A stretch of 64,000 nucleotides of DNA from a virus (IMGVR_UViG_3300030330_005258:1-64000); one strand, 5' to 3'; shown: positions 8,452 to 38,097, numbered from the stretch's first letter. Notes: generated by a model not told the origin, from the letters alone. Made by a program: numbers and translations.

Positions 8452-8453
8452 CT

Positions 8454-8851: not shown

Positions 8852-8863
8852 CATACTTACTAT

Positions 8864-9574: not shown

Positions 9575-9583
9575 AGTTTTCGC

Positions 9584-9612
9584 TTGACAACCCATGATCG
9601 CCCGGTTATGTT
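9584..9612 (+). promoter_or_regulatory. sigma70-type early promoter
   Basis: TTGACA-17-TATGTT, then AAGGAG. Confidence 0.75.
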
Positions 9613-9630
9613 ACGGGTGAAGGAGACAGA

Positions 9631-10077
9631 ATGTCCAACGCCCCATCGGAGTATGATGCTGGTCCGCCGACCGAGCGGGTTATGGTCTACCGTGGTCGTA
9701 ACTCGCGTTACTTTAACGTCGCCCGCAAGGCTGCGCTATGTTCGGCACAAAGCGACTACAAGCACGGCGCTGTGCTGGTAAAGGGTGGTTCTGTCATCAA
9801 CACCAGTTGTAACAAGAACCGCCGCGTATCGTTTGGTTCTCGTTTCTGCAAGGACCATGATGGCATCGCAACCCTGCACGCAGAGTTGGGCGCCATTCTC
9901 GGACTTGAACGATCTGTAACAGAAGGTGCAACCCTCTATGTTGCGCGTGTTGGCAAGGATGGCGGCTTTCGCCTCTCAAAGCCTTGCTCTATGTGTACTG
10001 CTGCGATGAAGCATGTGGGCATCAAGCGCGTCTATTGGACTATTGACAATCACAACTGCGCCATGGGGAAACTATGA
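9631..10077 (+). CDS. Cytidine/deoxycytidylate deaminase-family protein
   Basis: HGAVLV, LHAE, KPCSMC zinc motifs. Confidence 0.88.
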   Translation: MSNAPSEYDAGPPTERVMVYRGRNSRYFNVARKAALCSAQSDYKHGAVLVKGGSVINTSCNKNRRVSFGSRFCKDHDGIATLHAELGAILGLERSVTEGATLYVARVGKDGGFRLSKPCSMCTAAMKHVGIKRVYWTIDNHNCAMGKL

Positions 10078-10409
10078 GAAAGTGTGGCTACTGCGGCGAA
10101 CCGGGACACAACCGACGAACCTGTCCAAAACTCAAAGCAGACAAAGAGGCAGAACTTGAAGAAGAGGTCGTTGTTACCGAGAAGCCCAAGAAGAAGCGAA
10201 AGCAACGCTGCCGCTCTTGTGGCGAAGAAGACGATCACACAGCAAAGAACTGCCCTTACAAGCCGTTGCCCGCAGACGCAGACATCGGACCAAAAATGAT
10301 GGAGTGTGGCTGTTGGTCTTGGTGGCAGCGTGACGGAGAGTGTCAACTTTGCACAAAGGCAATCTACTTTAAGCAGTTTGACGACGACGAAGAAAAAGAA
10401 GCAGCATAA
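10074..10409 (+). CDS. CCHC zinc-knuckle protein
   Basis: CGYCGEPGHNRRTC and CRSCGEEDDHTAKNC. Confidence 0.8.
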   Translation: MRKCGYCGEPGHNRRTCPKLKADKEAELEEEVVVTEKPKKKRKQRCRSCGEEDDHTAKNCPYKPLPADADIGPKMMECGCWSWWQRDGECQLCTKAIYFKQFDDDEEKEAA

Positions 10410-10421
10410 GGAGAAAGTAGA

Positions 10422-10625
10422 ATGAAAATCAAATCTGTCAAATCTATCTACCTTTCTGAAAAGGAACTCAAAGACGCCATTTGTCAGTGGCTTTGTACAC
10501 ACGGACACCTTGGTTTAGCAAAGCATCTGGAAGACAATTTGTGCGAGTTTGAGTGGTCCCATCAAGATGACGGTGTTCATCTTGCTGTCGATATGGATGG
10601 ACAGTTTGAGGAGAACGAAGAATGA
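10422..10625 (+). CDS. Hypothetical protein
   Basis: AAGGAG RBS. Confidence 0.65.
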   Translation: MKIKSVKSIYLSEKELKDAICQWLCTHGHLGLAKHLEDNLCEFEWSHQDDGVHLAVDMDGQFEENEE

Positions 10626-10813
10626 AAGTAGGCGACCGAGTGAAACTCAAAAGCACGAATTCTTGGGCAAGTCCCGTTGTGGCAGGGGTCATTACGAAAA
10701 TTGACCATCAAGCAAGTTGCTTAAACCACAAGGTATATCTGTCTACTGCCCTCGACGGCATCCATCACGATTGGTATTCGCGTAAAGAACTGATCTCATT
10801 GGAGAACAAATGA
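10622..10813 (+). CDS. Small GDLV-family protein
   Basis: MKVGDRVKLK. Confidence 0.75.
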   Translation: MKVGDRVKLKSTNSWASPVVAGVITKIDHQASCLNHKVYLSTALDGIHHDWYSRKELISLENK

Positions 10814-11406
10814 TTCACATTACAGGCAAGATCCCAAAGAGAGTAGCCATCGCTGTAAGTGGCGGTATTGACTCTATGGCTGTGTTAGACTTCCTACGAA
10901 GGAAGCACGATGTTCTTGTTCTTCACTACAATCACGGTACACCTTATGCTCCAAAGGCAGAGGCTCTTGTTCGTGAGTATTGTGAAAGACACAGCCTTGA
11001 TCTGATGGTTGGCACCTGCCAGAAAGAAATGCCTGCTGGTGTTTCTCACGAAGCGTGGTGGCGAGATCAAAGATACGAGTTTTTCAAGTGGGCAACTGAC
11101 CTGCCTATCATTACGGCACATCATCTTGATGATTGTGTGGAGAACTGGATCTTCACCAGCATGAACGGCAACCCTTTCTTGATCCCAAGCAAGCGTGATC
11201 AGTTTATCCGTCCTTTTCTCACAACAGAGAAGAGAGATTTTACCTTGTGGTGCGTCCGCAAGGACGTCCCGACTATCGCTGACCCCAGCAACGACGACAC
11301 CAAGTATCGCCGCAACTACATTCGTCACACCCTAATGCCGCACGTCTTGGCGATCAACCCCGGCATCAGGAAGACGATCAAGAAAAAAGTCCTTGACAGC
11401 CTGTGA
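10810..11406 (+). CDS. tilS: tRNA(Ile)-lysidine synthase, catalytic domain only
   Basis: PP-loop AVSGGIDSM, HYNHG, TAHHLDDCVE, IRPFL, DPSN, RNYIRH. Confidence 0.88.
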   Translation: MIHITGKIPKRVAIAVSGGIDSMAVLDFLRRKHDVLVLHYNHGTPYAPKAEALVREYCERHSLDLMVGTCQKEMPAGVSHEAWWRDQRYEFFKWATDLPIITAHHLDDCVENWIFTSMNGNPFLIPSKRDQFIRPFLTTEKRDFTLWCVRKDVPTIADPSNDDTKYRRNYIRHTLMPHVLAINPGIRKTIKKKVLDSL

Positions 11407-11421
11407 TCGTCAGGTTACATT
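11393..11421 (+). promoter_or_regulatory. sigma70-type early promoter
   Basis: TTGACA-17-TACATT, then ACAAGAGTAAGGAGA. Confidence 0.8.
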
Positions 11422-11441
11422 ACAAGAGTAAGGAGAGCCAC

Positions 11442-11666
11442 ATGCAAGACGTTGAACACAGAGACTTCCGCCTGCAGTCCAATGGAATGGATGAGGTATT
11501 CGTTGTCGCTACTTCTGGCACCCTTGCCGATCAAATGGCTTGGATTCAAGTTGAGCACAAAAATGGTGAGTTGGTTGTTATTGCGTTTTCCAATAACGGC
11601 GCACACGAGGGCGTTGAACTCGGCAAGATCGACAGGGACGGCGCTCTCGTTTTTTCATCGAAATAA
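11442..11666 (+). CDS. Hypothetical protein
   Basis: ATG 11442 follows the promoter-RBS unit. Confidence 0.65.
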   Translation: MQDVEHRDFRLQSNGMDEVFVVATSGTLADQMAWIQVEHKNGELVVIAFSNNGAHEGVELGKIDRDGALVFSSK

Positions 11667-11669
11667 TCC

Positions 11670-11698
11670 TTGACAGCCTGTAATCGCCGGGCTATATT
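11670..11698 (+). promoter_or_regulatory. sigma70-type promoter, tandem set before tRNAs
   Basis: TTGACA-17-TATATT. Confidence 0.8.
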
Positions 11699-11757
11699 AC
11701 AAGAGTAAGGAGAGAGACGCCCTCGCACTCACCGCGAGAGAACATCAAAAAAAATCC

Positions 11758-11786
11758 TTGACAGACGGTCCCCAGCCGGTTATAAT
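11758..11786 (+). promoter_or_regulatory. Consensus sigma70 promoter with upstream A-tract
   Basis: TTGACA-17-TATAAT. Confidence 0.88.
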
Positions 11787-11833
11787 ATAGGGGTGCGGAG
11801 GGACATAGGAGCCTCCCGAAAGAAAAAAAGTCC

Positions 11834-11861
11834 GTGGCAGCCGCGCCCTCCCGGTTACAAT
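11834..11861 (+). promoter_or_regulatory. sigma70-type promoter directly before first tRNA
   Basis: A-tract, GTGGCA-16-TACAAT. Confidence 0.6.
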
Positions 11862-11874
11862 AGGAGGGATATAA

Positions 11875-11951
11875 GGGGAGATAGCTCAATTGGTCAGAGC
11901 ATCGGTCTCATAAACCGAGGGTTCTGGGTTCAAGTCCCAGTCTCCCTACCA
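11875..11951 (+). tRNA. tRNA with CAT anticodon (Ile2 likely; elongator Met possible)
   Basis: Cloverleaf; anticodon arm TCGGT-CTCATAA-ACCGA; CCA encoded; lacks initiator G-C triplet; tilS nearby. Confidence 0.9.
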
Positions 11952-11964
11952 TCTTTAACATTTT

Positions 11965-12085
11965 AGAAGTGCTATAACCGCCCTGCAAGGCATGGGTGAG
12001 ACACGGGACAAAACAGGAGTTGTATTATTTTATTATTATTCGGGCTTTCCTGTGCCAGTTTCAGGTGCAAATCCTGACACTTCTA
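11965..12085 (+). ncRNA. tRNA-ended structured ncRNA, copy A
   Basis: Acceptor AGAAGTG/CACTTCT-A; T-arm TCAGG-TGCAAAT-CCTGA; shares motifs with 13496-13680. Confidence 0.7.
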
Positions 12086-12089
12086 TTTT

Positions 12090-12165
12090 GGGTCAATAGC
12101 TCAATTGGCAGAGCACCGGGCTTTTAACCCGTAGGTTCTGGGTTCGATTCCCAGTTGACCCACCA
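12090..12165 (+). tRNA. tRNA-Lys(TTT)
   Basis: 76-nt cloverleaf, loop CTTTTAA, CCA. Confidence 0.95.
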
Positions 12166-12223
12166 TCCCAAAGGTGTTGTTCCTACCTCAAAAGGAGCAC
12201 TAACTAAAACAAAAGGAAACTAC

Positions 12224-12430
12224 ATGATCACCACTACCCTCGACAGCACCTTCCTACAGGAAGCAACCTACGACAGCAGCCGCCGTATGCTGACTGTTGT
12301 ATTCAAGAATGGACGCACCTATTCATACCAGAATGTTGACAAGACTGTGTATGATGGGCTTATCAACGCCCGTTCTTCAAGCCGCTTCTTCGGTGCGAAC
12401 ATTCGTGGTCAGTTCACCACTGGCTCCTGA
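12224..12430 (+). CDS. KTSC-domain protein
   Basis: DSTFLQEATYD...LTVVFKNGRTYSYQNV...FFGANIRG. Confidence 0.85.
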   Translation: MITTTLDSTFLQEATYDSSRRMLTVVFKNGRTYSYQNVDKTVYDGLINARSSSRFFGANIRGQFTTGS

Positions 12431-12470
12431 TGGGGTAAAAGCCTTGCCCCCGGCTTTGTAGGGGGCTTTT

Positions 12471-12547
<77 letters not shown>

Positions 12548-12553
12548 CTTTGT

Positions 12554-12627
12554 TGGAGCGTCGTTCAAGGGTAGGACCTTGGTTTTTGGCACCAATGATG
12601 GGGGTTCGAATCCCTCCGCTCCAGCCA
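12554..12627 (+). tRNA. tRNA-Gln(TTG)
   Basis: T1-A72, TTGGT-TTTTGGC-ACCAA, CCA. Confidence 0.92.
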
Positions 12628-12641
12628 GTTTAGTATTTTAA

Positions 12642-12729
12642 GGCGCCATGGTGGAATTGGTATACACAGCAGACTCAAAATCTGCCGGACATTATGTCCT
12701 TGTCGGTTCGAGTCCGACTGGCGCTACCA
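12642..12729 (+). tRNA. tRNA-Leu(CAA)
   Basis: GCAGA-CTCAAAA-TCTGC, long variable arm, CCA. Confidence 0.95.
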
Positions 12730-12750
12730 CTTTTTATACAGGAGACAAAA

Positions 12751-13152
12751 ATGGGAATCTTTATTGTAACAGCGACATCAACTGACGACGATTACAAGCG
12801 ACCCTATGTAAGCAGCGAAACTGCGATGGCTACTTCTCGTGAAGATGCGGTTGTTCGTGCAGTAGAGTTCTACCTTGAACGCCTCGATGGTGGGTATTCT
12901 TTCGACTACCACAGCCCATCAGGATTTAACCAGATCATCGAGAAGCACAGGAACAGCCCTCAGTCTCTATTCTCAGCACTTTACGATTACTTCGAGAGCA
13001 ACCCAGAGGGAATGTTTACTGGCGAGTTTGTCCCAGAAACCCTAAGTGTGACCATCAGCGAAAGTGATCACGCCCCACTTGATACAAAACCAATTCTATC
13101 TATGGTTGACGAGATTACTCGTTACATCAAGGAAGAACTGGAAGAAGGATAA
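12751..13152 (+). CDS. Hypothetical acidic protein
   Basis: AGGAG RBS, ATG 12751 (track start overlaps tRNA-Leu). Confidence 0.7.
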   Translation: MGIFIVTATSTDDDYKRPYVSSETAMATSREDAVVRAVEFYLERLDGGYSFDYHSPSGFNQIIEKHRNSPQSLFSALYDYFESNPEGMFTGEFVPETLSVTISESDHAPLDTKPILSMVDEITRYIKEELEEG

Positions 13153-13167
13153 AAGTTTTTTACTTTT

Positions 13168-13240
13168 GACGGCATAGCTCAGTTGGTAGAGCAGGTGGCT
13201 GTTAACCACCCGGTCGTGGGTTCGAGCCCCTCTGCCGTCG
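13168..13240 (+). tRNA. tRNA-Asn(GTT)
   Basis: GGTGG-CTGTTAA-CCACC; 73 nt; CCA not encoded. Confidence 0.92.
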
Positions 13241-13271
13241 CTTTTTAACTTATAGGCACTTTGAGAGACAA

Positions 13272-13484
13272 ATGAAAAAAATCAGTATTCTACTTTCAAC
13301 TATCTTCCTTACAGGTTGCCCGATTGCTATGGCATCAGAGAAGCCAGATTGCATCATCGATCAATGTGATAAGAATGTTTGTACCATTGAGACACCCGAG
13401 GGAACCATTGAGGTTCCGAAGAAACGGAACTACAAGGAGGGCAAGCCTGTTGTTTGCCCTCTATGGTTGATTGAGCCTACTTGA
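13272..13484 (+). CDS. Small putative lipoprotein
   Basis: MKK, hydrophobic stretch, LTGC lipobox. Confidence 0.65.
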   Translation: MKKISILLSTIFLTGCPIAMASEKPDCIIDQCDKNVCTIETPEGTIEVPKKRNYKEGKPVVCPLWLIEPT

Positions 13485-13495
13485 TAAACGATTTC

Positions 13496-13680
13496 GAGAG
13501 CACTAAGTCTCTTTCGCAACAGTAGGGAGCAATTCCGATCAAAACAAAAGAGAACTCAGAACAAAACAGGTCAGAAGTTTAGCCATCCTCTAAATGGCGT
13601 GAGTTTCTGGTTGGGGTTTATACAGATTATTGGGCTTACCCAGCCTGTGCCAGTTTCGGGTGCGAACCCCGATGCTCTCA
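13496..13680 (+). ncRNA. tRNA-ended structured ncRNA, copy B
   Basis: Acceptor GAGAGCA/TGCTCTC-A(CC); T-arm TCGGG-TGCGAAC-CCCGA; shares motifs with 11965-12085. Confidence 0.7.
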
Positions 13681-13700
13681 CCTTTTTACACGGAGATAGA

Positions 13701-13871
13701 ATGTATCAGTATACAGTATTTGCCACAGTTGCAAAGCAAGAGATTGAACTGAAAACATTTTTTGATGATCTTGACGAGAAGCCAATGGAAAAGGCCAAGG
13801 CTCTTGTCGAAGCGAATAAGGGTAAGTTTCGCTCCATGCGAATCGAAAAACGAATCACCCCGATGCTGTGA
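13701..13871 (+). CDS. Hypothetical protein
   Basis: GGAG RBS; TGA lies inside the GTGAC box. Confidence 0.6.
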   Translation: MYQYTVFATVAKQEIELKTFFDDLDEKPMEKAKALVEANKGKFRSMRIEKRITPML

Positions 13872-13911
13872 CATTCCGTGACTTGACAACCCGCCACCCC
13901 CACGCTATATT
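13868..13911 (+). promoter_or_regulatory. Boxed early promoter
   Basis: GTGACATTCCGTGAC-TTGACA-17-TATATT. Confidence 0.85.
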
Positions 13912-13930
13912 ACAGGTGTGAGGAGAGAGA

Positions 13931-14125
13931 ATGACGCTGTATCGCGAAGGCACATTGTTGAGAGACTGCCTCGGTGCCCTGTGGATGATCACGGGCTATT
14001 GTAGAGACGATTTGTTCAGGCGCAAGCCAAATGCGTATGTCCTCAAGCGGCTGGCAGACTCTTCTATCAGTAAGCCTGAGTTTTGTATTGTCCATCGACA
14101 AATGGAACTGGTTTCGGAGGCATAA
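13931..14125 (+). CDS. Small GDLV-like protein
   Basis: YREGTLLRD...MELVSEA. Confidence 0.6.
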   Translation: MTLYREGTLLRDCLGALWMITGYCRDDLFRRKPNAYVLKRLADSSISKPEFCIVHRQMELVSEA

Positions 14126-14295
14126 TGAAGATAGGAGATTTGGTCAGGCACGCCAGTGAATGGGAAGATTCAAGAGGCATTGTTCTACAGTTTTATCCCG
14201 GCTGGGCAACGTATACCAAAGTTTATTGGCTTAGTCATAAACAGTACGGTTCTCATCCTGCTGATGACTTGGAGGTAATCAGTGAAGGTCGGTGA
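14125..14295 (+). CDS. Small GDLV-family protein
   Basis: MKIGDLVRH...LEVISEGR. Confidence 0.8.
   Translation: MKIGDLVRHASEWEDSRGIVLQFYPGWATYTKVYWLSHKQYGSHPADDLEVISEGR
14269..14295 (+). repeat. 27-nt gene-junction repeat, copy 1 (others at 14417, 17633, 17793, 17959)
   Basis: TTGGAGGTAATCAGTGAAGGTCGGTGA. Confidence 0.85.
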
Positions 14296-14443
14296 TATGG
14301 TAAAGTTTGTTGACGGCAAGATTATCGGTCTTGTTGTCGGCACCACAAATGCACCCGATGTCATTCAAGTCCTCTGGCTGCCCGCCCGCACACCTTCGCC
14401 CGCTCGGATCGATCGTTTGGAGGTAATCAGTGAAGGTGGGTGA
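14282..14443 (+). CDS. Small GDLV-family protein (not in ORF track)
   Basis: GTG start; MKVGDMVKFV...LEVISEGG. Confidence 0.75.
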   Translation: MKVGDMVKFVDGKIIGLVVGTTNAPDVIQVLWLPARTPSPARIDRLEVISEGG

Positions 14444-14627
14444 TTTGGTAAAGTTTCGGAAAGACACTTTCAGCGGTTCGGTCGCTTACGACCGCTACCG
14501 GCAACTTGGTATTATTCTTTCTTTTGACCAAGACGACGATCCGAACGTATTGTGGTTTCATCCAAGTTTTCACGGACAAACAGAACCAAACTTTCGTAAC
14601 CACATTGTAATGCTTTCAGAGTGTTGA
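14430..14627 (+). CDS. Small GDLV-family protein
   Basis: MKVGDLVKFR. Confidence 0.8.
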   Translation: MKVGDLVKFRKDTFSGSVAYDRYRQLGIILSFDQDDDPNVLWFHPSFHGQTEPNFRNHIVMLSEC

Positions 14628-14660
14628 CAAACTATTTACTTCTTCCAAAGGAGTATCCAA

Positions 14661-14744
14661 ATGCAAAGAGACATAATGGCCGACATCGGCATAATCGCTA
14701 CTATTGGTGCTGTCGCAGTTATTCTGGCAATCTTTTTCTACTGA
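14661..14744 (+). CDS. 27-aa membrane peptide
   Basis: ACTATTTA at 14631, AAGGAG RBS; MQRDIMADIGIIATIGAVAVILAIFFY. Confidence 0.55.
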   Translation: MQRDIMADIGIIATIGAVAVILAIFFY

Positions 14745-14753
14745 GAGGTAAAA

Positions 14754-15044
14754 ATGAGAGAAACATACGAAATGGTCCAGTGCGCAGATGGCTTTACCGT
14801 GTCTATTCAAGCCGGTAGCACTTTCTACTGCGAACCAAGATCAAACGCTGTAGGCGCATACGAAAGCGTGGAGCTTGGCTTTCCCAACAGACCTTGTATC
14901 TTTATCAAGGACTACGCAGAAGATCCCGAAAATCCAACCGGCTCAGTTTATGGATACGTTCCGGCGCACGTCGTTCGCAAGATGATTGCTGCACACGGCG
15001 GTATTGTATCCGGTGAGTGCCCACCGCTGGTGGAATCTGGCTGA
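14754..15044 (+). CDS. Hypothetical phage protein
   Basis: GAGG RBS; CADGFTVSIQAG...VELGFP...VYGYVP. Confidence 0.7.
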   Translation: MRETYEMVQCADGFTVSIQAGSTFYCEPRSNAVGAYESVELGFPNRPCIFIKDYAEDPENPTGSVYGYVPAHVVRKMIAAHGGIVSGECPPLVESG

Positions 15045-15874
15045 TGTTCAAGAGTCTGCTATTGGCGGCCATTTTCTCGGCACCCCAGCCGGAGTGGCTG
15101 CCTATAGCACATTCACAAGATCGCTGCGTTGTGCAAAACTGCTCGGTTGAGGTCAAGGCTTCCAAAGTTGGCATCAAGTATGCCAACAAGAAAAAAGTAT
15201 ATTCAACCTCTGTGCATTATGAAGAGGATGTCTTCTACCTTGATTATGTTCTCAGAAAGAGAATCCGAGACTTTCTACAAAAGCACCCAAACCAGCGCAA
15301 GTTTGTTGTGACTGGTTTTACAGATGGCTGCGGCTCACACCAATACAACAAAGAACTATCACGCAAACGAGCGAGCGAAGTTGCACGCTATGTAATCTCG
15401 CTGCGAGACGGCGCCGTTGTCAGTATGCGTTGGGTTGGAGAAGCCACCGGAGAACACACCGTAAGAGCCCGTAGAGTCGATCTAAGCGTCTCCAAAAACA
15501 TACAGGAACCTTTGGTCCCACCCAAAATAATAGCCGATTTCTACCTCATAGATAGTTCGGGCTCGATGGCAGATGAAGGCAGGTGGGCATCTTGGGTTTA
15601 TGCCATTAAGTATTGGAAACCAAGGCACGCGCGAGTATTCGTTTCAACGACAGAGTATGTGACAGGTGGTCGAGAGTTGGCCAACATAAGACCCAACGGA
15701 GGTACAGAGATCTGGTATTCATACTACCAGATTCTTGACAAGATGAAGCCGGGTCAGACTTTGTTAATCATTTCCGACTTTGATTCAGAAGTGAGACTTT
15801 CTACCCGAGAAGCAGAAATGATAGAAAGAAAAGTGCGTGCAAAAGGTGTGCGCGTCCAAGCCATCGACCTGTGA
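15044..15874 (+). CDS. Secreted OmpA-like peptidoglycan-binding domain plus vWA-like domain
   Basis: Signal peptide; GFTDGCGSHQYNKELSRKRA...ARRVDL (OmpA_C); IDSSGSM, GGTE, ISD (MIDAS). Confidence 0.8.
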   Translation: MFKSLLLAAIFSAPQPEWLPIAHSQDRCVVQNCSVEVKASKVGIKYANKKKVYSTSVHYEEDVFYLDYVLRKRIRDFLQKHPNQRKFVVTGFTDGCGSHQYNKELSRKRASEVARYVISLRDGAVVSMRWVGEATGEHTVRARRVDLSVSKNIQEPLVPPKIIADFYLIDSSGSMADEGRWASWVYAIKYWKPRHARVFVSTTEYVTGGRELANIRPNGGTEIWYSYYQILDKMKPGQTLLIISDFDSEVRLSTREAEMIERKVRAKGVRVQAIDL

Positions 15875-15914
15875 CATTTCGTGACTTGACGATCTGAGAT
15901 CCCCCGGATAGATT
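15871..15914 (+). promoter_or_regulatory. Boxed early promoter
   Basis: GTGACATTTCGTGAC-TTGACG-17-TAGATT. Confidence 0.8.
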
Positions 15915-15933
15915 ACAAAGGTAAGGAGAGCCT

Positions 15934-16131
15934 GTGTCATTGGACGACATCAACATCGGTGATTTGGTCAGAGCATAGGGCTGGGAAGAACTCTTGGTCG
16001 TCTCAGACATCTACTTTGATCTGTCCGAACAAACATGGTGCTTTGACGCTTACGGCTTGGAAAGCCGCCAAATGAATGACGGACTTTCTTTTGACTTGGA
16101 AGAACTAACAGTAGTTTCGAGGGCAGCATGA
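15934..16131 (+). pseudogene. GDLV-family gene interrupted by an in-frame TAG
   Basis: MSLDDINIGDLVRA*GWEELLVVSD...LTVVSRAA; TAG at 15976-15978. Confidence 0.7.
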
Positions 16132-16307
16132 AAGTAGGTAACATTGTGAAATGGCACACCGACACCGCGCACTTTGCCATAGTTTCCGGCATTGTCATCG
16201 ACACCTGTATGATTGACGGACTCCCCCACGCCACTGTCTTTTGGTTTGATTTGGGAGTTGAAAATCATCATCCCTACATGAACCTGACCACGATTTCGAG
16301 GGCATAA
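16128..16307 (+). CDS. Small GDLV-family protein (not in ORF track)
   Basis: MKVGNIVKW...LTTISRA. Confidence 0.75.
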   Translation: MKVGNIVKWHTDTAHFAIVSGIVIDTCMIDGLPHATVFWFDLGVENHHPYMNLTTISRA

Positions 16308-16486
16308 TGGAACAGATTTCATTTGTTATTCCTTTTGGCGACACAACTGACCCCGAAAAGGTTGCAAAGAAACTTGCCAAAGAGTTGCAGTTTCGCCAGT
16401 GGTATGTGAAGAGGGCAGATCGCGGCAACGACGAAGGTGTCGCAGCAACAACTTTCACCCTTATGGGTTGGACAACGGAGTGGTAG
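16307..16486 (+). CDS. Hypothetical protein (not in ORF track)
   Basis: MEQISFVIPF...; coupled start. Confidence 0.55.
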   Translation: MEQISFVIPFGDTTDPEKVAKKLAKELQFRQWYVKRADRGNDEGVAATTFTLMGWTTEW

Positions 16487-16487
16487 A

Positions 16488-16787
16488 ATGTTGGTGAAAG
16501 ACTTGAAAGTAGGTGCGATGTATCGACTGCAAGATTTTGTTGGATCGCCACAGAAGTTTAACTTTTGCTATTATCCTGACTTTGAGGACTGCATGGTATC
16601 CATTGTCAATGGTGAGGGTCTCGGCGACAAGTTTGTTTACTTGGGGACCAAGACGCTTGAATACAAGGAGGGCTCCTACAATCGACGCTACAAGAAGAAC
16701 ACATGGCGTCTTGGGTTGTTTGGCGACAAGGTGTTGCCAATCGCACCAGACATTTGGACTTACATTGAGCCAATGGAGGAAACATGA
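16488..16787 (+). CDS. GDLV-like protein
   Basis: MLVKDLKVGAMYRL. Confidence 0.7.
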   Translation: MLVKDLKVGAMYRLQDFVGSPQKFNFCYYPDFEDCMVSIVNGEGLGDKFVYLGTKTLEYKEGSYNRRYKKNTWRLGLFGDKVLPIAPDIWTYIEPMEET

Positions 16788-17047
16788 GAGTATCTGAACT
16801 GAAGGTCGGAGAACTTTACAAGATTCGTTCCGACCGCAAAACACACGTCCTTGTCCGTCGCGGGATGCTTGATGTCCATGTTGGCCATGGACACTTTGAA
16901 GCAGAAGCAAAGATCAGACCCTTCGACCATCTTGTCTATCTTGGCGGCATCGCCGGAAGTAGACGAGTGATGTATCGCGGTGAAAAGTTGCGGGTTTATC
17001 CCAACGTATGGCAGCACATCGTGCCCCTTGAGGATGACATTTCGTGA
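16784..17047 (+). CDS. GDLV-like protein
   Basis: MRVSELKVGELYKI; stop inside second GTGAC box. Confidence 0.7.
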   Translation: MRVSELKVGELYKIRSDRKTHVLVRRGMLDVHVGHGHFEAEAKIRPFDHLVYLGGIAGSRRVMYRGEKLRVYPNVWQHIVPLEDDIS

Positions 17048-17077
17048 CGTGACAGACTGAGATCCCCGTGCTATGTT
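17034..17077 (+). promoter_or_regulatory. Boxed early promoter
   Basis: ATGACATTTCGTGAC-GTGACA-17-TATGTT. Confidence 0.8.
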
Positions 17078-17096
17078 ACAGGGACAAGGAGAAGCC

Positions 17097-17447
17097 ATGC
17101 GTGCTCACATGATTGACTGTGCCGTCTGCGAAGAGACTTTCGACCTTCACTCGCCCGAGAAGAAGCGCGCGGGCGGTCTGCGTAACCATTGTCCCGACTG
17201 CGCGGAGGAAACGGCTGTGCCGTATCTCGCGGTCAATGGTGCCGATGGCAAGATGGCAGGTCTCACGATCCTTGCGTTTGATTCTGCCGAGGACCGAGAA
17301 AAGTATAAGAAGGCTTGGCACAACAATACTGGCATGAACAAGGGCAAGTCCTGTCACCTGTCCACTTCCAACACACCGATGAATGGTATGAAGTTTCGCC
17401 GCGTCGGTGAGAACTTTGGCAACTCCAACCACAAGGGTAAGTTGTAA
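17097..17447 (+). CDS. Zinc-ribbon protein
   Basis: CAVC...CPDC; AAGGAG RBS. Confidence 0.7.
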   Translation: MRAHMIDCAVCEETFDLHSPEKKRAGGLRNHCPDCAEETAVPYLAVNGADGKMAGLTILAFDSAEDREKYKKAWHNNTGMNKGKSCHLSTSNTPMNGMKFRRVGENFGNSNHKGKL

Positions 17448-17659
17448 TGAAGGTTGGTGATCTGATTAGGGTTCAATCCTTTCATGAACATATTTCAAAA
17501 TGTAAACTTTTCATTGTTATGAGAAGAGAAATAAACCCTCTTGGACATGAAATAGTTTGGATTTATCCAGATCCTGAACCTGAGCAGGATTACGATCATA
17601 CCGATGACGACAACTATTACTTCGCTGATGCGTTTGAGGTAGTCAATGAAAGTAGGTGA
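17447..17659 (+). CDS. Small GDLV-family protein
   Basis: MKVGDLIRV...FEVVNESR. Confidence 0.8.
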   Translation: MKVGDLIRVQSFHEHISKCKLFIVMRREINPLGHEIVWIYPDPEPEQDYDHTDDDNYYFADAFEVVNESR

Positions 17660-17819
17660 CATTGTGAGATTCAAGAAAGATGTTCTTGGTCTTGAAAACC
17701 AACGTGGCATTGTTGTTGCCGACAATGGAGGCGCTGTTGATGTTTATTGGTACAAGGGTCCCAAAATGGTCATTACCGACCTCAAAGAGTTTCTGGTGGT
17801 AGTCAATGAAAGTGGGTGA
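17646..17819 (+). CDS. Small GDLV-family protein (not in ORF track)
   Basis: MKVGDIVRF...LVVVNESG. Confidence 0.78.
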   Translation: MKVGDIVRFKKDVLGLENQRGIVVADNGGAVDVYWYKGPKMVITDLKEFLVVVNESG

Positions 17820-17985
17820 TCTGGTAAGAAACAAATGGCACCCCGAAAAGGGTCAAGGAATCATCTTAGGTTGGACGACGTTTGATGCCCGCCCAATGGC
17901 GCGACTCTTTTGGTTTGAGAATAAAACAAGTTATGAAAAGTATCATCTTCGGCATCACTTGGAGGTAATCAGTGAAAGTGGGTGA
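17806..17985 (+). CDS. Small GDLV-family protein (not in ORF track)
   Basis: MKVGDLVRN...LEVISESG. Confidence 0.78.
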   Translation: MKVGDLVRNKWHPEKGQGIILGWTTFDARPMARLFWFENKTSYEKYHLRHHLEVISESG

Positions 17986-18181
17986 TTTGATCCAGTCCTC
18001 TGCTTTTGAGGGACAAAACGGCATCGTCATTGAAACTGACCACGAGAATGACCCTGATGGCTCTTGGTATCATATTGTGTGGTTCAAAGTAAATCGCAAC
18101 TATGGCAGCAGTTTTACAAAAGATTGGGCACGCCACGAATGGTGTCGCAGCCACGAGATTGAACCCCACGACATTTCGTGA
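17972..18181 (+). CDS. Small GDLV-family protein
   Basis: MKVGDLIQS; stop inside second GTGAC box. Confidence 0.8.
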   Translation: MKVGDLIQSSAFEGQNGIVIETDHENDPDGSWYHIVWFKVNRNYGSSFTKDWARHEWCRSHEIEPHDIS

Positions 18182-18211
18182 CTTGACGATCTGCGATCAC
18201 CGGCATACATT
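18168..18211 (+). promoter_or_regulatory. Boxed early promoter
   Basis: ACGACATTTCGTGAC-TTGACG-17-TACATT. Confidence 0.85.
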
Positions 18212-18235
18212 ACAAGAGTAAGAAGGAGAACGCCG

Positions 18236-18586
18236 ATGGGCTACCGGTCTGATGTCATCTTTGCCTGCACCGCTGACGCTGTGCCTGTCCTGCTCGCGGA
18301 GGCTGGCAAAAGCCCAGCCCTCAAAGAGTTGCTGTTTGCCGACGCTGACGAAAAGTTGCTTGGAGACTACGACGGCTATGGTTCCTACCTGTTTCGCTGG
18401 GAGTGTATCAAGTGGTATAATAGCTCCCCATGGGTTCAGGCTTTCGACCAGATGATCGACAAGATTGAAGAAAAGCTGGATCAGGAAGCATACCGGTGGG
18501 TCTGTATCGGTGAAGAGTTGGACGACGTGCAGACCAAGGGATGGGGCTTTGACCACATTTACGTGCGCCGGGAGATTGAATACTAA
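18236..18586 (+). CDS. Hypothetical phage protein
   Basis: MGYRSDV...KWY...IGEELDD; AAGGAG RBS. Confidence 0.75.
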   Translation: MGYRSDVIFACTADAVPVLLAEAGKSPALKELLFADADEKLLGDYDGYGSYLFRWECIKWYNSSPWVQAFDQMIDKIEEKLDQEAYRWVCIGEELDDVQTKGWGFDHIYVRREIEY

Positions 18587-18822
18587 TGGCCAACGGATAC
18601 CAAATGTTTGAAAAGCTGCATCCTGTCGGCGGTCTCTACCGCTGCAAGGATCCTTTTCCCGATGATCCTTGGAAGTTTGGCAAAGTCTATATTCTGACAA
18701 AGTGGGAAGTTCCCGAGGGTCTCTCAGAAAAGTCCCCTCTTCGCAACGCTTACTTTTTTGTTGATGGCAAGGAGCGTTGTGTTGATATTTCTTTCTTTCG
18801 CTATTTGGAGCAAGTAGAATGA
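18586..18822 (+). CDS. Hypothetical protein
   Basis: Coupled ORF. Confidence 0.65.
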   Translation: MANGYQMFEKLHPVGGLYRCKDPFPDDPWKFGKVYILTKWEVPEGLSEKSPLRNAYFFVDGKERCVDISFFRYLEQVE

Positions 18823-19043
18823 AAGTAGGTGATTTGGTGCGACATAACGGCGGTGGTGGAGAACCACCCGCTATTGGCATCATTGTTGGAAGACACCCAG
18901 AATATAACTGGTGGGAGGTTTTGGAACTTTGTGGCGAGTATGTCGGTATCACAGCAGAAGCCGATTCCGAGGGTGACGGCTGGTTCGTTATTTCAGAAAT
19001 GTCCTTGACAGATGACGATCGCCCGGATACATTACAGGAGTAA
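18819..19043 (+). CDS. Small GDLV-family protein
   Basis: MKVGDLVRH; runs through the next promoter. Confidence 0.75.
   Translation: MKVGDLVRHNGGGGEPPAIGIIVGRHPEYNWWEVLELCGEYVGITAEADSEGDGWFVISEMSLTDDDRPDTLQE
19005..19033 (+). promoter_or_regulatory. sigma70-type early promoter
   Basis: TTGACA-17-TACATT, then ACAGGAGTAAGGAGA. Confidence 0.85.
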
Positions 19044-19052
19044 GGAGAGAAA

Positions 19053-19733
19053 ATGAGCGAACTGACCGACCAGCAGATCTTCGACCGACTCGGTGGCATC
19101 AAGGGCTTGCCCACCTGCTCCCAGTGGGCAGAGGGCTTCGCGGATAGCATCCGAGACCAGATCAAGCGCGGACGGACGCTCTCCGAACGCCAGCGGGCAA
19201 CCTGCCGCAAGATTCTCAAAGAGAACAGCAAGGAGGCAAACCGCGAACTTGCCAACTGGGCAAACGAATACGAAATACATCACAAGAAGAAGGCTAAGCA
19301 GATTGCTACCTATTACAGCGTGCAGTCTGGTGGCTACTTTCGTGATCTGGTCAGAGTCATCCTCGCTGACGAAGTGCCCCCGCGTGGCAAGTATCTCAAA
19401 ATGCGTAACAACAAGTACGCAAAGAAGGTTCTTGCCGAGATTGAGCGCAAGCCTCGTTTTAGCACCGAAGATCACATCATCCCAAACTCCAAGTTTCAGG
19501 ATGGGTATTCCTTTAACGTCGCTATGATGTCGTCTCGGAATGGCAAGGGTTACGTCTCTGGCAACGAAAAGAGCAACTTTAAGGCTCGTGGCGGCGTTAT
19601 CATCGACGTTGATGACAAGATTCATTCTGCCGCCAAGGGGGCAAAGCGTTATCTTGTGCTGCCTTTTGGCTCTGCCGAGACTTACTGGGTAGAAGAACGC
19701 TTCTTGAAGAAGAAGGCAAAGGTGAAGAAGTGA
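19053..19733 (+). CDS. Hypothetical basic protein
   Basis: Follows promoter-RBS unit. Confidence 0.75.
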   Translation: MSELTDQQIFDRLGGIKGLPTCSQWAEGFADSIRDQIKRGRTLSERQRATCRKILKENSKEANRELANWANEYEIHHKKKAKQIATYYSVQSGGYFRDLVRVILADEVPPRGKYLKMRNNKYAKKVLAEIERKPRFSTEDHIIPNSKFQDGYSFNVAMMSSRNGKGYVSGNEKSNFKARGGVIIDVDDKIHSAAKGAKRYLVLPFGSAETYWVEERFLKKKAKVKK

Positions 19734-19830
19734 GAGTCACCCCAATCGTTCCCGTCATTCTTATTCCCAAGAAGACGGACAAAGTGGAAAATGACCCACA
19801 ACCTCGCAAGATCAAGAAAAGGGAGAAGAA

Positions 19831-21056: not shown

Positions 21057-21311
21057 ATGGGCGCACGATTCACGATTGTCCTCGACACGGATGACCCACA
21101 GGGTCTTCGCGATGCCTTGGAGATCGCCACCATTCTGAACAGGAACCACGGCACTCTCGGTGGCAACCCTTCCGCCAAGGCAAAGATCGGAAAGATCGCA
21201 CTGATCAAGATGGTCCGAGAAGTGGCAAGGAACGTGGAAGAAGGAAAGTTGTCATCTTCTCTTCGTGACTCCAAGCGGTTCGTTGACGGAAAGTGGCAAC
21301 TTTTGCTGTGA
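21057..21311 (+). CDS. Protein with ribosomal bL12 (L7/L12) C-terminal-like motif
   Basis: KIALIKMVREVA...SLRDSKRFVD resembles the bL12 K..VIK.VR...GLKEAKDLVE pattern. Confidence 0.6.
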   Translation: MGARFTIVLDTDDPQGLRDALEIATILNRNHGTLGGNPSAKAKIGKIALIKMVREVARNVEEGKLSSSLRDSKRFVDGKWQLLL

Positions 21312-21350
21312 CATTTCGTGACTTGACAATCTGACCTGATCGGTTACATT
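21308..21350 (+). promoter_or_regulatory. Boxed early promoter
   Basis: GTGACATTTCGTGAC-TTGACA-16-TACATT. Confidence 0.85.
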
Positions 21351-21405
21351 ACAAGGGTGAGAGGGGCGATGGTCGCTCCCCCCGAAAGAAAATCAAAAAA
21401 ACTAC

Positions 21406-24370: not shown

Positions 24371-24595
24371 ATGACACCTGACGCCCTGCCCATCGGCTCG
24401 ATTGTCCGTTGTGACTACTACGGGCGCGGTATCATCATCGACGCCTCGCCGGGTCACCCGTCCGGCACCATGTTGTACCACGTTCGGTGGGACAAGTCGA
24501 TCGAATGGAAAGAGTCCCCAAACTACAAGGCTGAAATCTACCAGTCTTGTTGGGTTGACGACATTGACGTTGAAATCATTTCGGAGGCAAAATGA
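24371..24595 (+). CDS. Small GDLV-family protein
   Basis: LPIGSIVRC...VEIISEAK. Confidence 0.72.
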   Translation: MTPDALPIGSIVRCDYYGRGIIIDASPGHPSGTMLYHVRWDKSIEWKESPNYKAEIYQSCWVDDIDVEIISEAK

Positions 24596-24706: not shown

Positions 24707-24907
24707 GTGACTGACGAAGAAAGAATCCTAAATGCTTTTGTCAAGCACTGGGGACTTACTTTGGAGGAGGCCCAAGAAGAGTTGGCAAAAGCAAAGGCGG
24801 ACGCCAAGAAGAAGGCAGAACGCCGAGAGGCTGAAAAGCAGTCACTTTGGAGCACCGACAAGGATTGGGACTACTACCCGACCCTCCCAGAAAAGAAGGA
24901 ACAATGA
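24707..24907 (+). CDS. Hypothetical helical protein
   Basis: GTG start; start position uncertain. Confidence 0.5.
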   Translation: MTDEERILNAFVKHWGLTLEEAQEELAKAKADAKKKAERREAEKQSLWSTDKDWDYYPTLPEKKEQ

Positions 24908-25095
24908 AGCACCCTTTCCAAGTTGGTGATCTTGTGCGGAGCCGAAACAACCGCACAAACTTCGCCATCGTCACAAAAGCACGTAAAAACTGCAAAGACC
25001 TCTATGTTGACGTGGTTTGGCTCCGCGCCGGAGCGCCCACCGCATCGTGGTATTGCTTCAGCAGATTCACCCTTGTTTCGAGAGCAGAACAATGA
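24904..25095 (+). CDS. Small GDLV-family protein
   Basis: MKHPFQVGDLVRS...LVSRAEQ. Confidence 0.75.
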   Translation: MKHPFQVGDLVRSRNNRTNFAIVTKARKNCKDLYVDVVWLRAGAPTASWYCFSRFTLVSRAEQ

Positions 25096-32272: not shown

Positions 32273-32479
32273 ATGCCGAGAATACCTAAGCCCCCGCCTA
32301 AATTCAAGGTCGGGGATTTAGTTTATCTAGCATATGATACATTTAGCATTTATGGCATGGGTATAATACTGGCAAAGCACTCCCACGGAGATTGGGAGGT
32401 CTACTGGTTTGGCGAAAGAGGATTATTTATCGAACATCCGATGGATATAAGGCATGTTACCTTGCCGGAAGACGACTGA
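32273..32479 (+). CDS. Small GDLV-family protein
   Basis: FKVGDLVYL. Confidence 0.75.
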   Translation: MPRIPKPPPKFKVGDLVYLAYDTFSIYGMGIILAKHSHGDWEVYWFGERGLFIEHPMDIRHVTLPEDD

Positions 32480-36253: not shown

Positions 36254-36457
36254 GTGAAGTCAATCAACGCCGACCCATTCGCTGCACAGTATCCTCAAGC
36301 CAGCATTGGGGACTGGGTTTATTATCCCAAAACCAAAATTTGTGGCCTAGTTATAGGGGTTGACAACCAAACTGGTTTTATGCAAGTTCATGATTTCAAA
36401 ACTATGAATTTGCGGTGGGTAACCATGAACAATTTTGGTCAATATAAGGTTTTATGA
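36254..36457 (+). CDS. GDLV-like protein
   Basis: ASIGDWVYY...GLVIG. Confidence 0.62.
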   Translation: MKSINADPFAAQYPQASIGDWVYYPKTKICGLVIGVDNQTGFMQVHDFKTMNLRWVTMNNFGQYKVL

Positions 36458-36648
36458 GTGAAGGTGATCTAGTTAGACTTAAAACACGATATCCGATTTG
36501 GCTGTATTCGTTTGGTCTCACCGATGGGGACCTAGGAATAGTTGCTAAAATTGGGGAAGAGGATACCTTGGTTTATTGGCTAAGAATCAGAAAGCAAGGT
36601 TCTGTAAAGAATAACCTATTAGAACTCGTCGAGTTGGAGACAAAATGA
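36454..36648 (+). CDS. Small GDLV-family protein
   Basis: MSEGDLVRL...LELVE. Confidence 0.72.
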   Translation: MSEGDLVRLKTRYPIWLYSFGLTDGDLGIVAKIGEEDTLVYWLRIRKQGSVKNNLLELVELETK

Positions 36649-37450: not shown

Positions 37451-37900
37451 ATGCCCAGTTGGAACGCTTACAAGGTCTTTGCCAGTGGTAAGAGAGCAAA
37501 GATGCCTTACACAACATTTGATTCAGAAGATTCAAAACATTTTTATGAGAGTATCTTACCAACTCTCACACCAAAGTTACAAAAGTCAAATTGGCTTATA
37601 TTAAACACAGAAGAGCCACAAGAGAGACAGGCAGAGGCAATAGACGAAGCTAAGGTCAAGTTTGAGAAGGACAAGATTAGATTGTTGGGAACACTTGCGG
37701 CTCAAAAATATCCAAAGTTTGCAAAGAAGAAAGTCGAAGCTTGTTTATCAATGTGTCCAGAGACTGGATGGAAATGGGCTTGGTGTGTTGTAGAGTGTGC
37801 CAGCCATCGGCACCTTGGCGAATTGTCTGAAAGATTTGATACCCGTGCAGGGGCAGATAGTTGGATCAGGGAGCAACTTGAATGTATGGAGCAGGCGTAA
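37451..37900 (+). CDS. Hypothetical protein
   Basis: AGGAGG RBS. Confidence 0.7.
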   Translation: MPSWNAYKVFASGKRAKMPYTTFDSEDSKHFYESILPTLTPKLQKSNWLILNTEEPQERQAEAIDEAKVKFEKDKIRLLGTLAAQKYPKFAKKKVEACLSMCPETGWKWAWCVVECASHRHLGELSERFDTRAGADSWIREQLECMEQA

Positions 37901-38097
37901 AGCACAAGATTGGAGATTTAGTTAGAATAAAAAAATGGCACCCCGATGGTCAAACTAAATGGGGCTTGGGCATCATAACTCAACGTCCAGAGAACAAACA
38001 AAAAAGTTTATTTATAAAAGTATACATTTTTAAACTTAAACGAGAGGAGTGGATTGCACCAGCGGAAATGGACATAATCTCTAACATAGACGAATAA
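37882..38097 (+). CDS. Small GDLV-family protein
   Basis: HKIGDLVRI...MDIISN. Confidence 0.72.
   Translation: MYGAGVKHKIGDLVRIKKWHPDGQTKWGLGIITQRPENKQKSLFIKVYIFKLKREEWIAPAEMDIISNIDE

What the first reader, a model, noticed from the sequence alone, without database searches (positions are those of the whole stretch)
14269..17985. Self-chaining 27-nt gene junction that does five jobs at once
Seen: TTGGAGGTAATCAGTGAA(G/A)GT(C/G)GGTGA at 14269, 14417 and 17959, with variants at 17633 and 17793. It encodes the last strand of one gene (LEVISEG), a Shine-Dalgarno (GGAGGT), the next start codon, the next N-terminus (MKVGD) and the upstream stop, with a fixed 14-nt overlap. A second junction type, (G/A)TTTCG(GA/AG)GGCA..ATG, occurs at 14111, 16114, 16293 and 24578. 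Sequences between junctions are very divergent. Inference: stackable coupled modules whose constant joints allow array expansion and shuffling of variable small domains.
Basis: partly seen in the sequence, partly recalled or inferred. Interest (0 to 1): 0.75.

Follow-up and report, generated by a model that had tools for sequence, protein, structure and literature searches.

The report
Shufflable overlapping mini-gene array in phage
An uncultured marine T4-like phage chains tiny genes for one uncatalogued barrel-shaped protein family through a shared 14-base overlap that ends one gene and starts the next, and related phages carry whole genes added, lost, swapped or reordered at that overlap; what the proteins do is unknown.

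Summary
The 27-nt junction sits exactly at 14269, 14417 and 17959, with variants at 17633 and 17793. The second junction sits at 14111, 16114, 16293 and 24578. All are far above chance.

The genes belong to an uncatalogued family of 53-74 aa proteins with an SH3/KOW-like fold (N-terminus MKVGDLV, C-terminus LEVISESR). There are about 15 copies in this T4-like phage, 12-29 in four other phage records, and 631 metagenomic cluster representatives. They lie in short operons behind sigma70-like promoters.

Across 25 loci, 67 of 87 distinct family-to-family junctions have exactly the 14-nt overlap. Codon choice goes beyond what dual coding needs:
- GAG, which builds the ribosome-binding site, is used in 63 of 67 junctions against 42% inside the genes.
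- GGT is kept even where no gene overlaps.
- GTG starts occur almost only at overlapped positions.

Close relatives carry different cassette orders, each seen in at least two independent assemblies. The sequence switches fall inside the junction. One cassette is nearly identical (5/180 differences, 4 in the junctions) between genomes that are otherwise 73-84% identical.

It works like the PeSL cassettes of T4-type phages, but inside coding sequence. This scan reported the same architecture earlier on other DNA. I found no paper describing it. Protein function is untested.

The parts
13878..13913 (+). sigma70-like promoter cassette heading the operon that holds array A
   Evidence: GTGACTTGAC-N17-TATATT found by the motif and promoter scans
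13931..14125 (+). first small gene of the operon; it ends ...ELVSEA with a type-2 junction (14111-14122) and a TAATG stop/start overlap
   Evidence: orthogroup 2 in relatives
14125..14295 (+). cassette A1, family member (56 aa)
   Evidence: HMM E=1e-19; profile match
14269..14295 (+). type-1 junction A1/A2: tail of A1, GGAGGT, GTG start at 14282, MKVGD, TGA
14282..14443 (+). cassette A2 (53 aa); replaced by a second A1 copy in L021-L026
14417..14443 (+). type-1 junction A2/A3
14430..14627 (+). cassette A3 (65 aa), last of array A
15934..16131 (+). small gene with a GDLVR motif and a type-2 tail, interrupted by TAG at 15976-15978 where relatives have TGG
16128..16307 (+). family member (59 aa, MKVGN...); type-2 junctions upstream (16114) and downstream (16293)
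17044..17079 (+). sigma70-like promoter cassette heading the operon that holds array B
17447..17659 (+). cassette B1 (70 aa)
   Evidence: its slot is occupied by B2 in L017 and by By in L018
17633..17659 (+). type-1 junction variant B1/B2 (ATG start at 17646)
17646..17819 (+). cassette B2 (57 aa); absent from L018/L020 and placed before B1' in L017/L019
17793..17819 (+). type-1 junction variant B2/B3 (ATG start at 17806)
17806..17985 (+). cassette B3 (59 aa); folded model is an SH3/KOW-like barrel; differs from the L021 copy at 5 of 180 nt
17959..17985 (+). type-1 junction B3/B4 (GTG start at 17972)
17972..18181 (+). cassette B4 (69 aa), last of array B; its stop lies inside the next promoter cassette; absent from L021/L022/L024
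18819..19043 (+). cassette C1 (74 aa); joined directly to B3 in L021/L022/L024 through a chimeric junction
24371..24595 (+). small gene ending ...EIISEAK with a type-2 junction at 24578; below the family HMM threshold (E=1.1)
10622..10813 (+). outlying family member
24901..25095 (+). outlying family member
32273..32479 (+). outlying family member
36454..36648 (+). outlying family member
37882..38097 (+). outlying family member

Best explanation
The stretch holds two arrays (A1-A3 and B1-B4) plus scattered copies of an uncatalogued family of 53-74 aa SH3/KOW-like beta-barrel proteins. They lie in the early, hyperplastic region of an uncultured marine T4-like phage.

Anatomy (shown). Family members share only their first strand (MKVGDLV), a Gly, a Trp and their last strand (LEVISE). 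The DNA for 'last strand + first strand' is one about 30-nt unit. In it, the Leu-Glu-Val codons form GGAGGT, the Ser or Asn codon carries the next gene's GTG or ATG, and the next gene's Gly-Asp codons (GGT GA) form the upstream stop.

Function 1 (inferred). The unit couples translation along the chain. Ribosomes finishing one cassette terminate 11 nt past the next start, just downstream of a strong ribosome-binding site. This would explain why weak GTG starts are tolerated only at overlapped positions.

Function 2 (inferred from comparative data). Because every cassette carries the same unit at both ends, homologous recombination between any two junctions always regenerates two intact, coupled genes. 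This holds within a genome or between co-infecting relatives. Whole cassettes can therefore be deleted, duplicated, replaced, moved or exchanged.

It works like the PeSL promoter/terminator cassettes of T4-type phages, but the joint is coding and translational rather than intergenic and transcriptional.

Protein role (speculative). The proteins are most likely early-expressed binders whose variable loops target different host or defence components.
For: - The junctions lie at the stated coordinates, far above chance.
- The family was defined by iterated HMM: 14-15 members in this record, all on the + strand between 10.6 and 38 kb, and 12-29 members in four other phage records.
- 631 cluster representatives match among 1.8 billion proteins, mostly 50-65 aa. 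There is no Pfam or PHROG family.
- AlphaFold2 gives pLDDT 95.5 and a five-strand barrel. The best structural match is the Spt5 KOW domain (Z 8.6), followed by NusG KOW, R67 DHFR, NdhS and Tudor domains.
- The record encodes a T4 gp23-type capsid protein. Sigma70-like promoters head each operon.
- Of 87 distinct family-to-family junctions in 25 loci, 67 have exactly the 14-nt overlap.
- Codon choice points to selection at the DNA level: GAG in 63 of 67 junctions against 42% internally (p=2e-19); Leu third base G in 51 of 67 against 36%; Gly4 GGT in 41 of 56 non-overlapped starts against 33% at a conserved internal Gly; GTG starts in 38 of 84 overlapped against 5 of 64 non-overlapped positions (p=4e-7).
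- Cassette order differs among close relatives, and the sequence switches lie in the junction.
- The L021 B3|C1 junction is a chimera of the window's B3|B4 and x|C1 junctions.
- B3 differs from the L021 copy at 5 of 180 nt, 4 of them in the junctions, while flanking synteny is 73-84% identical.
- Each alternative order is seen in at least two independent assemblies.
- dN/dS is 0.13-0.39 for most ortholog pairs, so these are real constrained genes.
Against: - No measurement shows coupling or recombination at the junction.
- Every cassette carries the conserved ends, so a switch point 'in the junction' would also be seen after illegitimate recombination at gene borders followed by selection for intact genes.
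- The homology is short (about 27-45 nt) for efficient homologous recombination.
- The KOW-like 'GD-V' start is structurally favoured in many small barrels, so part of the N-terminal conservation is protein-level.
- A preference for AAA as second codon could reflect initiation efficiency alone.
- Adjacent cassettes are no more similar than distant ones (0.192 against 0.182, p=0.10), so recent array expansion is rare.
- The function of the proteins is entirely inferred.
Confidence: 0.72

Rival explanations
1. This is an ordinary old paralog array. The junction is conserved only because the first and last beta-strands and the inherited overlap are constrained at the protein level. Cassette differences arise by illegitimate recombination, with selection keeping only events at gene borders.
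For: The KOW-like N-terminal motif is common in small barrels. The paralog cores are ancient, at about 19% identity, and adjacency carries no similarity signal. The variable positions inside the 14-nt overlap are the synonymous sites of MKVGD.
Against: Synonymous sites are conserved beyond protein need: GAG in 63 of 67 junctions, and GGT at 73% where nothing overlaps against 33% at a conserved internal Gly. The exact 14-nt geometry is regenerated in 67 of 87 junctions. A chimeric junction exists, and a near-identical B3 cassette has its differences concentrated in the junctions. Illegitimate events would rarely rebuild the joint precisely.
Confidence: 0.17
2. The differing cassette orders are metagenome assembly chimeras formed at the repeated junction.
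For: All relatives are metagenomic contigs, and the junction is a repeat shared by co-occurring strains.
Against: Each alternative order recurs in independent samples and assemblers. L021, L022, L023 and L024 come from different ENA assemblies. L017 (NCBI) agrees with L019 (ENA). L018 agrees with L020, from two sequencing runs. The repeat is only 27-45 nt.
Confidence: 0.04
3. The junction is a recoding site at which ribosomes shift frame, so that the cassettes are made as a chain of fused domains.
For: In-frame two-module fusions exist elsewhere (P0023 127 aa, P0070, P0125). An AGG codon precedes the TGA in many junctions.
Against: A +1 shift at the stop would skip MKVG of the next module. The ribosome-binding site lies about 17 nt upstream of the stop, far from the spacing known for RF2-type frameshifting (established knowledge). 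There is no slippery sequence. Every cassette has its own start codon and ribosome-binding site.
Confidence: 0.03
4. The conserved nucleotides form an RNA structure, such as a processing or regulatory element.
For: Nucleotide conservation exceeds the amino-acid requirement.
Against: Folding 80 nt around each of the five window junctions gives energies no lower than shuffled sequence (z from -0.7 to +1.5), with no common structure.
Confidence: 0.03

Closest known systems
PeSL (promoter-early stem-loop) cassettes of T4-type phages (Arbiol et al. 2010, PMC2839356; Comeau et al. 2014, PMC4122927)
   Same: Both are short conserved repeats that flank small non-essential ORFs in hyperplastic regions of T4-like genomes. 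Indels and replacements between close relatives map to both. Both bring an expression signal with the gene, and both target exchanges to acceptable sites. The same window also carries repeated promoter cassettes.
   Different: The PeSL is intergenic, about 100 bp, and made of a sigma70 promoter plus a terminator hairpin. The junction here is about 27-45 nt and lies wholly inside two overlapping coding sequences. It carries a ribosome-binding site, a start and a stop rather than a promoter and terminator, and it joins paralogs of a single family. No terminator enrichment was found.
Short conserved boundary sequences model of phage mosaicism (as summarised in Pope et al. 2011, PMC3029335, their refs 21 and 22; the Island3 gp67/gp68 example of about 50 bp)
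   Same: Homologous recombination at short shared sequences at gene borders yields module exchange without broken genes.
   Different: That paper notes such sequences cannot be found at most mosaic boundaries. Here the boundary sequence is systematic: it is present at 67 of 87 family junctions and in at least 119 viral contig stretches.
KOW / SH3-like small beta-barrel domains (Spt5 and NusG KOW, Tudor, R67 DHFR, NdhS)
   Same: Five-strand barrel fold and a 'GD-V...G-G-IV' start resembling the KOW motif.
   Different: No member reaches any Pfam model, and the best profile E-value against NusG chains in the PDB is 0.16. These are stand-alone 53-74 aa proteins found in multi-copy arrays in phages.
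Translational coupling through overlapping stop/start codons (ATGA and TAATG types; established knowledge)
   Same: The upstream stop lies next to or after the downstream start, with a ribosome-binding site inside the upstream gene. The type-2 junctions here are the classical 1-nt and 4-nt overlaps.
   Different: The type-1 overlap is a fixed 14 nt. Its sequence is conserved across a whole gene family and many phages, and it fixes the last four residues of the upstream protein as a by-product.
Integron gene cassettes
   Same: Both are arrays of small promoterless genes whose order and content vary and which are bounded by a repeated joint.
   Different: Integrons use attC sites and a site-specific integrase. 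No such recombinase or structured site is evident here, and the joint is coding sequence.

Membership tests
PeSL cassette (T4-type phages) | Contains a strong sigma70-like early promoter | tested here: not met
   The junction holds no promoter. Promoter-like cassettes lie elsewhere, at 13878, 15881, 17044 and 18178.
PeSL cassette (T4-type phages) | Contains a stem-loop terminator | tested here: not met
   No stable fold at the junctions. Terminator-like sites are not enriched (20 against 18.9 expected).
PeSL cassette (T4-type phages) | Indels and replacements between close relatives map to the repeat | tested here: met
   HSP ends and explicit junction alignments.
Conserved boundary sequence at mosaic joints | The same short sequence is present at both ends of exchanged modules | tested here: met
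   Junction consensus from 67 junctions; all cassette borders listed.
Conserved boundary sequence at mosaic joints | Recombination actually occurs within it | not testable with these tools
   Only indirect evidence: a chimeric junction in L021 and the B3 differences concentrated in the junctions.
KOW domain (Pfam PF00467) | Matches the family HMM above threshold | tested here: not met
   No KOW hit for 10 window members at E<=1 or for 99 relatives at E<=0.01.
SH3-like small beta-barrel fold | Five-strand barrel similar to solved SH3, KOW or Tudor domains | tested here: met
   pLDDT 95.5. Spt5 KOW: Z 8.6, rmsd 2.2 over 57 residues. Many KOW and Tudor rows at Z 6-7.5. Such Z values may reflect only a common fold.
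Translationally coupled overlapping genes | Stop of the upstream gene overlaps or abuts the start of the downstream gene, with a ribosome-binding site in the upstream coding sequence | tested here: met
   14-nt overlap with GGAGGT 5 nt before the start.
Translationally coupled overlapping genes | Downstream translation depends on upstream translation | not testable with these tools
   Inferred only. GTG starts are enriched at overlapped positions (38/84 against 5/64).
Integron | attC-type structured site and an IntI integrase | not tested
   No integrase search was run. The junction shows no structure.

The most novel reading that the evidence does not exclude
The dual-coding junction is a selected, portable swap site. 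It makes this protein family a phage-borne cassette library. Co-infecting T4-like phages exchange single SH3-like binder genes through about 30 nt of coding homology. This continually re-assorts a repertoire of early host-takeover or counter-defence binders, so the system acts as a recombinase-independent, translation-level counterpart of integrons. In this reading, the extreme conservation of the proteins' two terminal strands is driven as much by this DNA-level role as by protein folding.
Probability: 0.3. Interest if true: 0.8.

Novelty: new variant of a known kind. Interest (0 to 1): 0.6.

Why it matters
Phage genomes are mosaics, and how intact genes get exchanged has long been debated. 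Conserved boundary sequences were proposed decades ago but are rarely found (PMC3029335). Here the boundary sequence is systematic. It is shared by a whole gene family in at least about a hundred uncultured phage contigs, and close relatives show cassette loss, replacement, reordering and one very recent transfer at it. That gives a concrete, testable case: measure rearrangement with native against synonymously scrambled junctions. It also shows how one about 30-nt unit can serve two proteins, a ribosome-binding site, a start, a stop and recombination homology at once. In addition, it flags a large uncatalogued family of small early phage proteins (up to 29 copies per record, 631 cluster representatives). 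These are candidates for host-takeover or counter-defence binders and natural small-scaffold libraries.

Tried and rejected
- Pfam and PHROG scans of 10 window members and Pfam scans of 99 relatives found no family; only stray weak hits to DUF1918, DUF2098, MSSS and PWWP.
- blastn of the region and tblastn of three members against 50,697 GenBank phage records gave no match, so no cultured carrier was found at that sensitivity.
- The search for related loci with the paralog alignment failed because the alignment is too divergent. A single member worked.
- A profile search of PDB sequences found nothing significant.
- Foldseek against the PDB gave only generic small-barrel hits with E>0.03. BFVD returned only uncharacterised phage proteins. 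The ESM Atlas gave only unnamed viral clusters.
- RNA structure at the junction: none.
- Recent local tandem duplication as the main driver: not supported. Adjacent and non-adjacent core identities are 0.192 and 0.182 (p=0.10), and the only clear recent duplicate is in L006, at 157 of about 185 nt identical.
- Frameshift fusion: rejected on geometry.
- TAG recoding to explain the in-frame TAG at 15976: rejected, because relatives have TGG there.
- Literature searches for the terminal motifs and for tandem SH3-like phage arrays found nothing relevant.


Full report
**What is there.** The window is the first 64 kb of a 154,577-bp IMG/VR virus record that CheckV rates 64% complete. The record encodes a T4 gp23-type major capsid protein, so it is a T4-like phage. 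Six tRNA genes lie just upstream of the finding.

The reported 27-mer occurs exactly at 14269, 14417 and 17959, with none expected by chance. The two variants at 17633 and 17793 are visible in the sequence. The second motif occurs at the four stated places against 0.05 expected.

Reading the frames confirms the 'five jobs':
- The upstream gene ends L-E-V-I-S-E-(G/S)-(R/G)-stop.
- The Leu-Glu-Val codons spell GGAGGT, 5 nt before the next start.
- The Ser codon AGT (or Asn AAT) carries the G or A of GTG or ATG.
- The next gene begins M-K-V-G-D.
- Its Gly-Asp codons GGT GA supply the upstream TGA, which gives a 14-nt overlap.

**The genes.** An iterated HMM built from the obvious copies finds 14 members in the record. 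A profile of 99 relatives finds 15. All are on the + strand between 10.6 and 38 kb. They are 53-74 aa long and share MKVGDLV, one Gly, one Trp and the LEVISE tail. The rest is about 19% identical.

No Pfam or PHROG model matches. AlphaFold2 gives a confident five-strand barrel with pLDDT 95.5. Its nearest solved folds are KOW, Tudor and other SH3-like domains. Spt5 KOW scores Z 8.6, and many others score 6-7.5. This defines a fold class, not a function.

A profile search of 1.8 billion cluster representatives finds 631 relatives at E<=0.001, mostly 50-65 aa. Of 139 short ones, 85 start MKVGD and 58 end in the (S/N)(E/A)(S/G)(R/G) tail. Four other phage records hold 12, 29, 20 and 19 copies, and one of them is a complete 196-kb T4-like genome.

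Most ortholog pairs have dN/dS of 0.13-0.39, so these are real, constrained genes. B2, B3 and B4 score 0.6-0.9 against L017 and L018. The genes are short, so these estimates are noisy.

Sigma70-like promoter cassettes head each short operon, at 13878, 15881, 17044 and 18178. Promoter-like sites are enriched (29 against 11.8 expected), which fits early expression.

**The junction across the family.** In 25 loci I found 87 distinct family-to-family junctions, and 67 have exactly the 14-nt overlap. The tail 'ESR' is simply MKVGD read in the other frame. Cassettes that end an array have unrelated tails.

Several synonymous choices exceed what the two proteins need:
- The Glu codon in the ribosome-binding site is GAG in 63 of 67 junctions, against 42% inside the genes (p=2e-19).
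- The preceding Leu codon ends in G in 51 of 67, against 36%.
- Gly4 is GGT in 41 of 56 starts where no upstream ORF overlaps. An equally conserved internal Gly uses GGT in only 33% of cases.
- GTG starts make up 38 of 84 overlapped starts but only 5 of 64 non-overlapped ones (p=4e-7). The weaker start appears where it lets the upstream protein end in Ser and where coupling can compensate.

No RNA structure explains the conservation.

**Relatives.** Contigs encoding near-identical cassettes come from Tara Oceans and other marine assemblies. Orthogroup maps give the following orders:

| Locus | Cassette order |
|---|---|
| Window, array B | [116-aa gene]-B1-B2-B3-B4-...-C1 |
| L017 and L019 | [116-aa gene]-B2-B1'-(an A2-like cassette)-B3-B4 |
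| L018 and L020 | [116-aa gene]-By-B1-B3-B4 |
| L021, L022 and L024 | Bz-B3-C1 |
| Window, array A | A1-A2-A3 |
| L017, array A | A0-A1-A2-A3 |
| L021-L026, array A | A1-A1copy-A3 |

Each order is seen in at least two independent assemblies, which argues against assembly chimeras.

The same upstream 116-aa gene is followed by three different cassettes. In each case the switch is at the ATGAARGTNGGTGA. blastn segments end in or overlap at the junctions. For example, L018 positions 691-796 and 765-1842 match the window at 17554-17659 and 17789-18838, and L021 positions 11031-11225 and 11209-12126 match 17795-17989 and 18820-19734.

In L021, the B3|C1 joint has the GTG and upstream side of the window's B3|B4 joint and the downstream side of the window's C1 start. 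That is what a crossover inside the junction would give.

B3 differs between the window and L021 at 5 of 180 nt, four of them in its two junctions. The neighbouring syntenic DNA is 73-84% identical. This points to a very recent transfer of one cassette.

**Interpretation.** The anatomy and the comparative pattern are shown. Translational coupling and recombination at the joint are inferred.

The best reading is that the joint couples translation along the chain. Because it is identical at both ends of every cassette, it also lets homologous recombination delete, duplicate, replace, move or exchange whole genes while always rebuilding a working joint.

This works like the PeSL cassettes of T4-type phages (PMC2839356, PMC4122927). 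It is also a systematic instance of the 'short conserved boundary sequences' idea, which has rarely been observed (PMC3029335). It is not a PeSL, however. It has no promoter and no terminator hairpin, and it lies inside coding sequence.

Adjacent cassettes are no more alike than distant ones. The visible dynamics are therefore shuffling of old cassettes rather than recent amplification, apart from one duplicate pair in L006.

The type-2 junction is the same C-terminal strand, (V/I)-S-(E/R)-A, with the ribosome-binding site moved to the Ser-Glu/Arg-Ala codons and a classical 1- or 4-nt overlap. It leads into family and non-family genes alike.

**Function of the proteins.** This is unknown. The early operons, the conserved scaffold with variable loops, the multi-copy state and the cassette turnover suggest a repertoire of small binders for host takeover or counter-defence. 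I put this at roughly one in three.

**Prior notes and literature.** This scan had already reported the same 14-nt-overlap SH3-like cassette arrays on other DNA (e1-5318884, e1-5817671, e1-5726614, e1-5856066). My tests here were independent of those notes and agree with them. I found no paper describing the family or the junction.

Noticed in passing
window 15934-16131 (TAG at 15976-15978): A small cassette-like gene with a GDLVR motif and a type-2 tail has an in-frame TAG where L021 and L017 have TGG (Trp). It is either a nonsense-mutated copy or a sequencing error, not recoding. Its 5' end also differs from relatives: it starts right after a promoter cassette instead of overlapping an upstream gene.
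   Followed up: yes
window 17037-17049 and 18169-18181: The last genes of two operons (16784-17047 ending ...EDDIS, and 17972-18181 ending ...PHDIS) take their final codons and TGA from the GACATTTCGTGAC box of the next promoter cassette. Relatives end ...PRDIS. This is a third kind of shared gene-end joint.
   Followed up: partly
window 13878, 15881, 17044, 18178, 21318, 26568: A repeated sigma70-like promoter cassette (GTGACNTGAC-N16-18-TANNTTAC) occurs 6 times exactly against 0 expected, with about 60-nt similarity between copies and to relatives (e.g. 21308-21365 is 96.6% identical to L021). It resembles a PeSL but shows no terminator hairpin.
   Followed up: partly
window 17806-17985 vs L021:11042-11221: Cassette B3 is 97% identical (5 of 180 nt differ, one of them in the core) between two phages whose flanking genes are 73-84% identical. 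This indicates recent lateral transfer of a single 180-nt gene.
   Followed up: yes
proteins P0004, P0005, P0011, P0015, P0056, P0118: Long proteins (550-1500 aa) carry 5-14 tandem repeats of a similar 'GD(R/L)V(R/K)V...W' small-barrel unit. P0023, P0070 and P0125 are two-module in-frame fusions. Covalently chained versions of the module therefore exist elsewhere.
   Followed up: no
L006 (IMGVR_UViG_3300025082_000009) 7500-16400: This is the largest array seen: about 25 family cassettes in 9 kb (29 in the 58.7-kb record). It includes one recent tandem duplicate pair at 11969 and 12141, with 80% core identity.
   Followed up: partly
window 14662-14745 and 15017-15874: Array A is followed in the same operon by a short ORF starting at 14662 that looks like a transmembrane peptide by eye (untested), and then by a 285-aa protein with an OmpA-like domain. 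This gene order is conserved in relatives.
   Followed up: no
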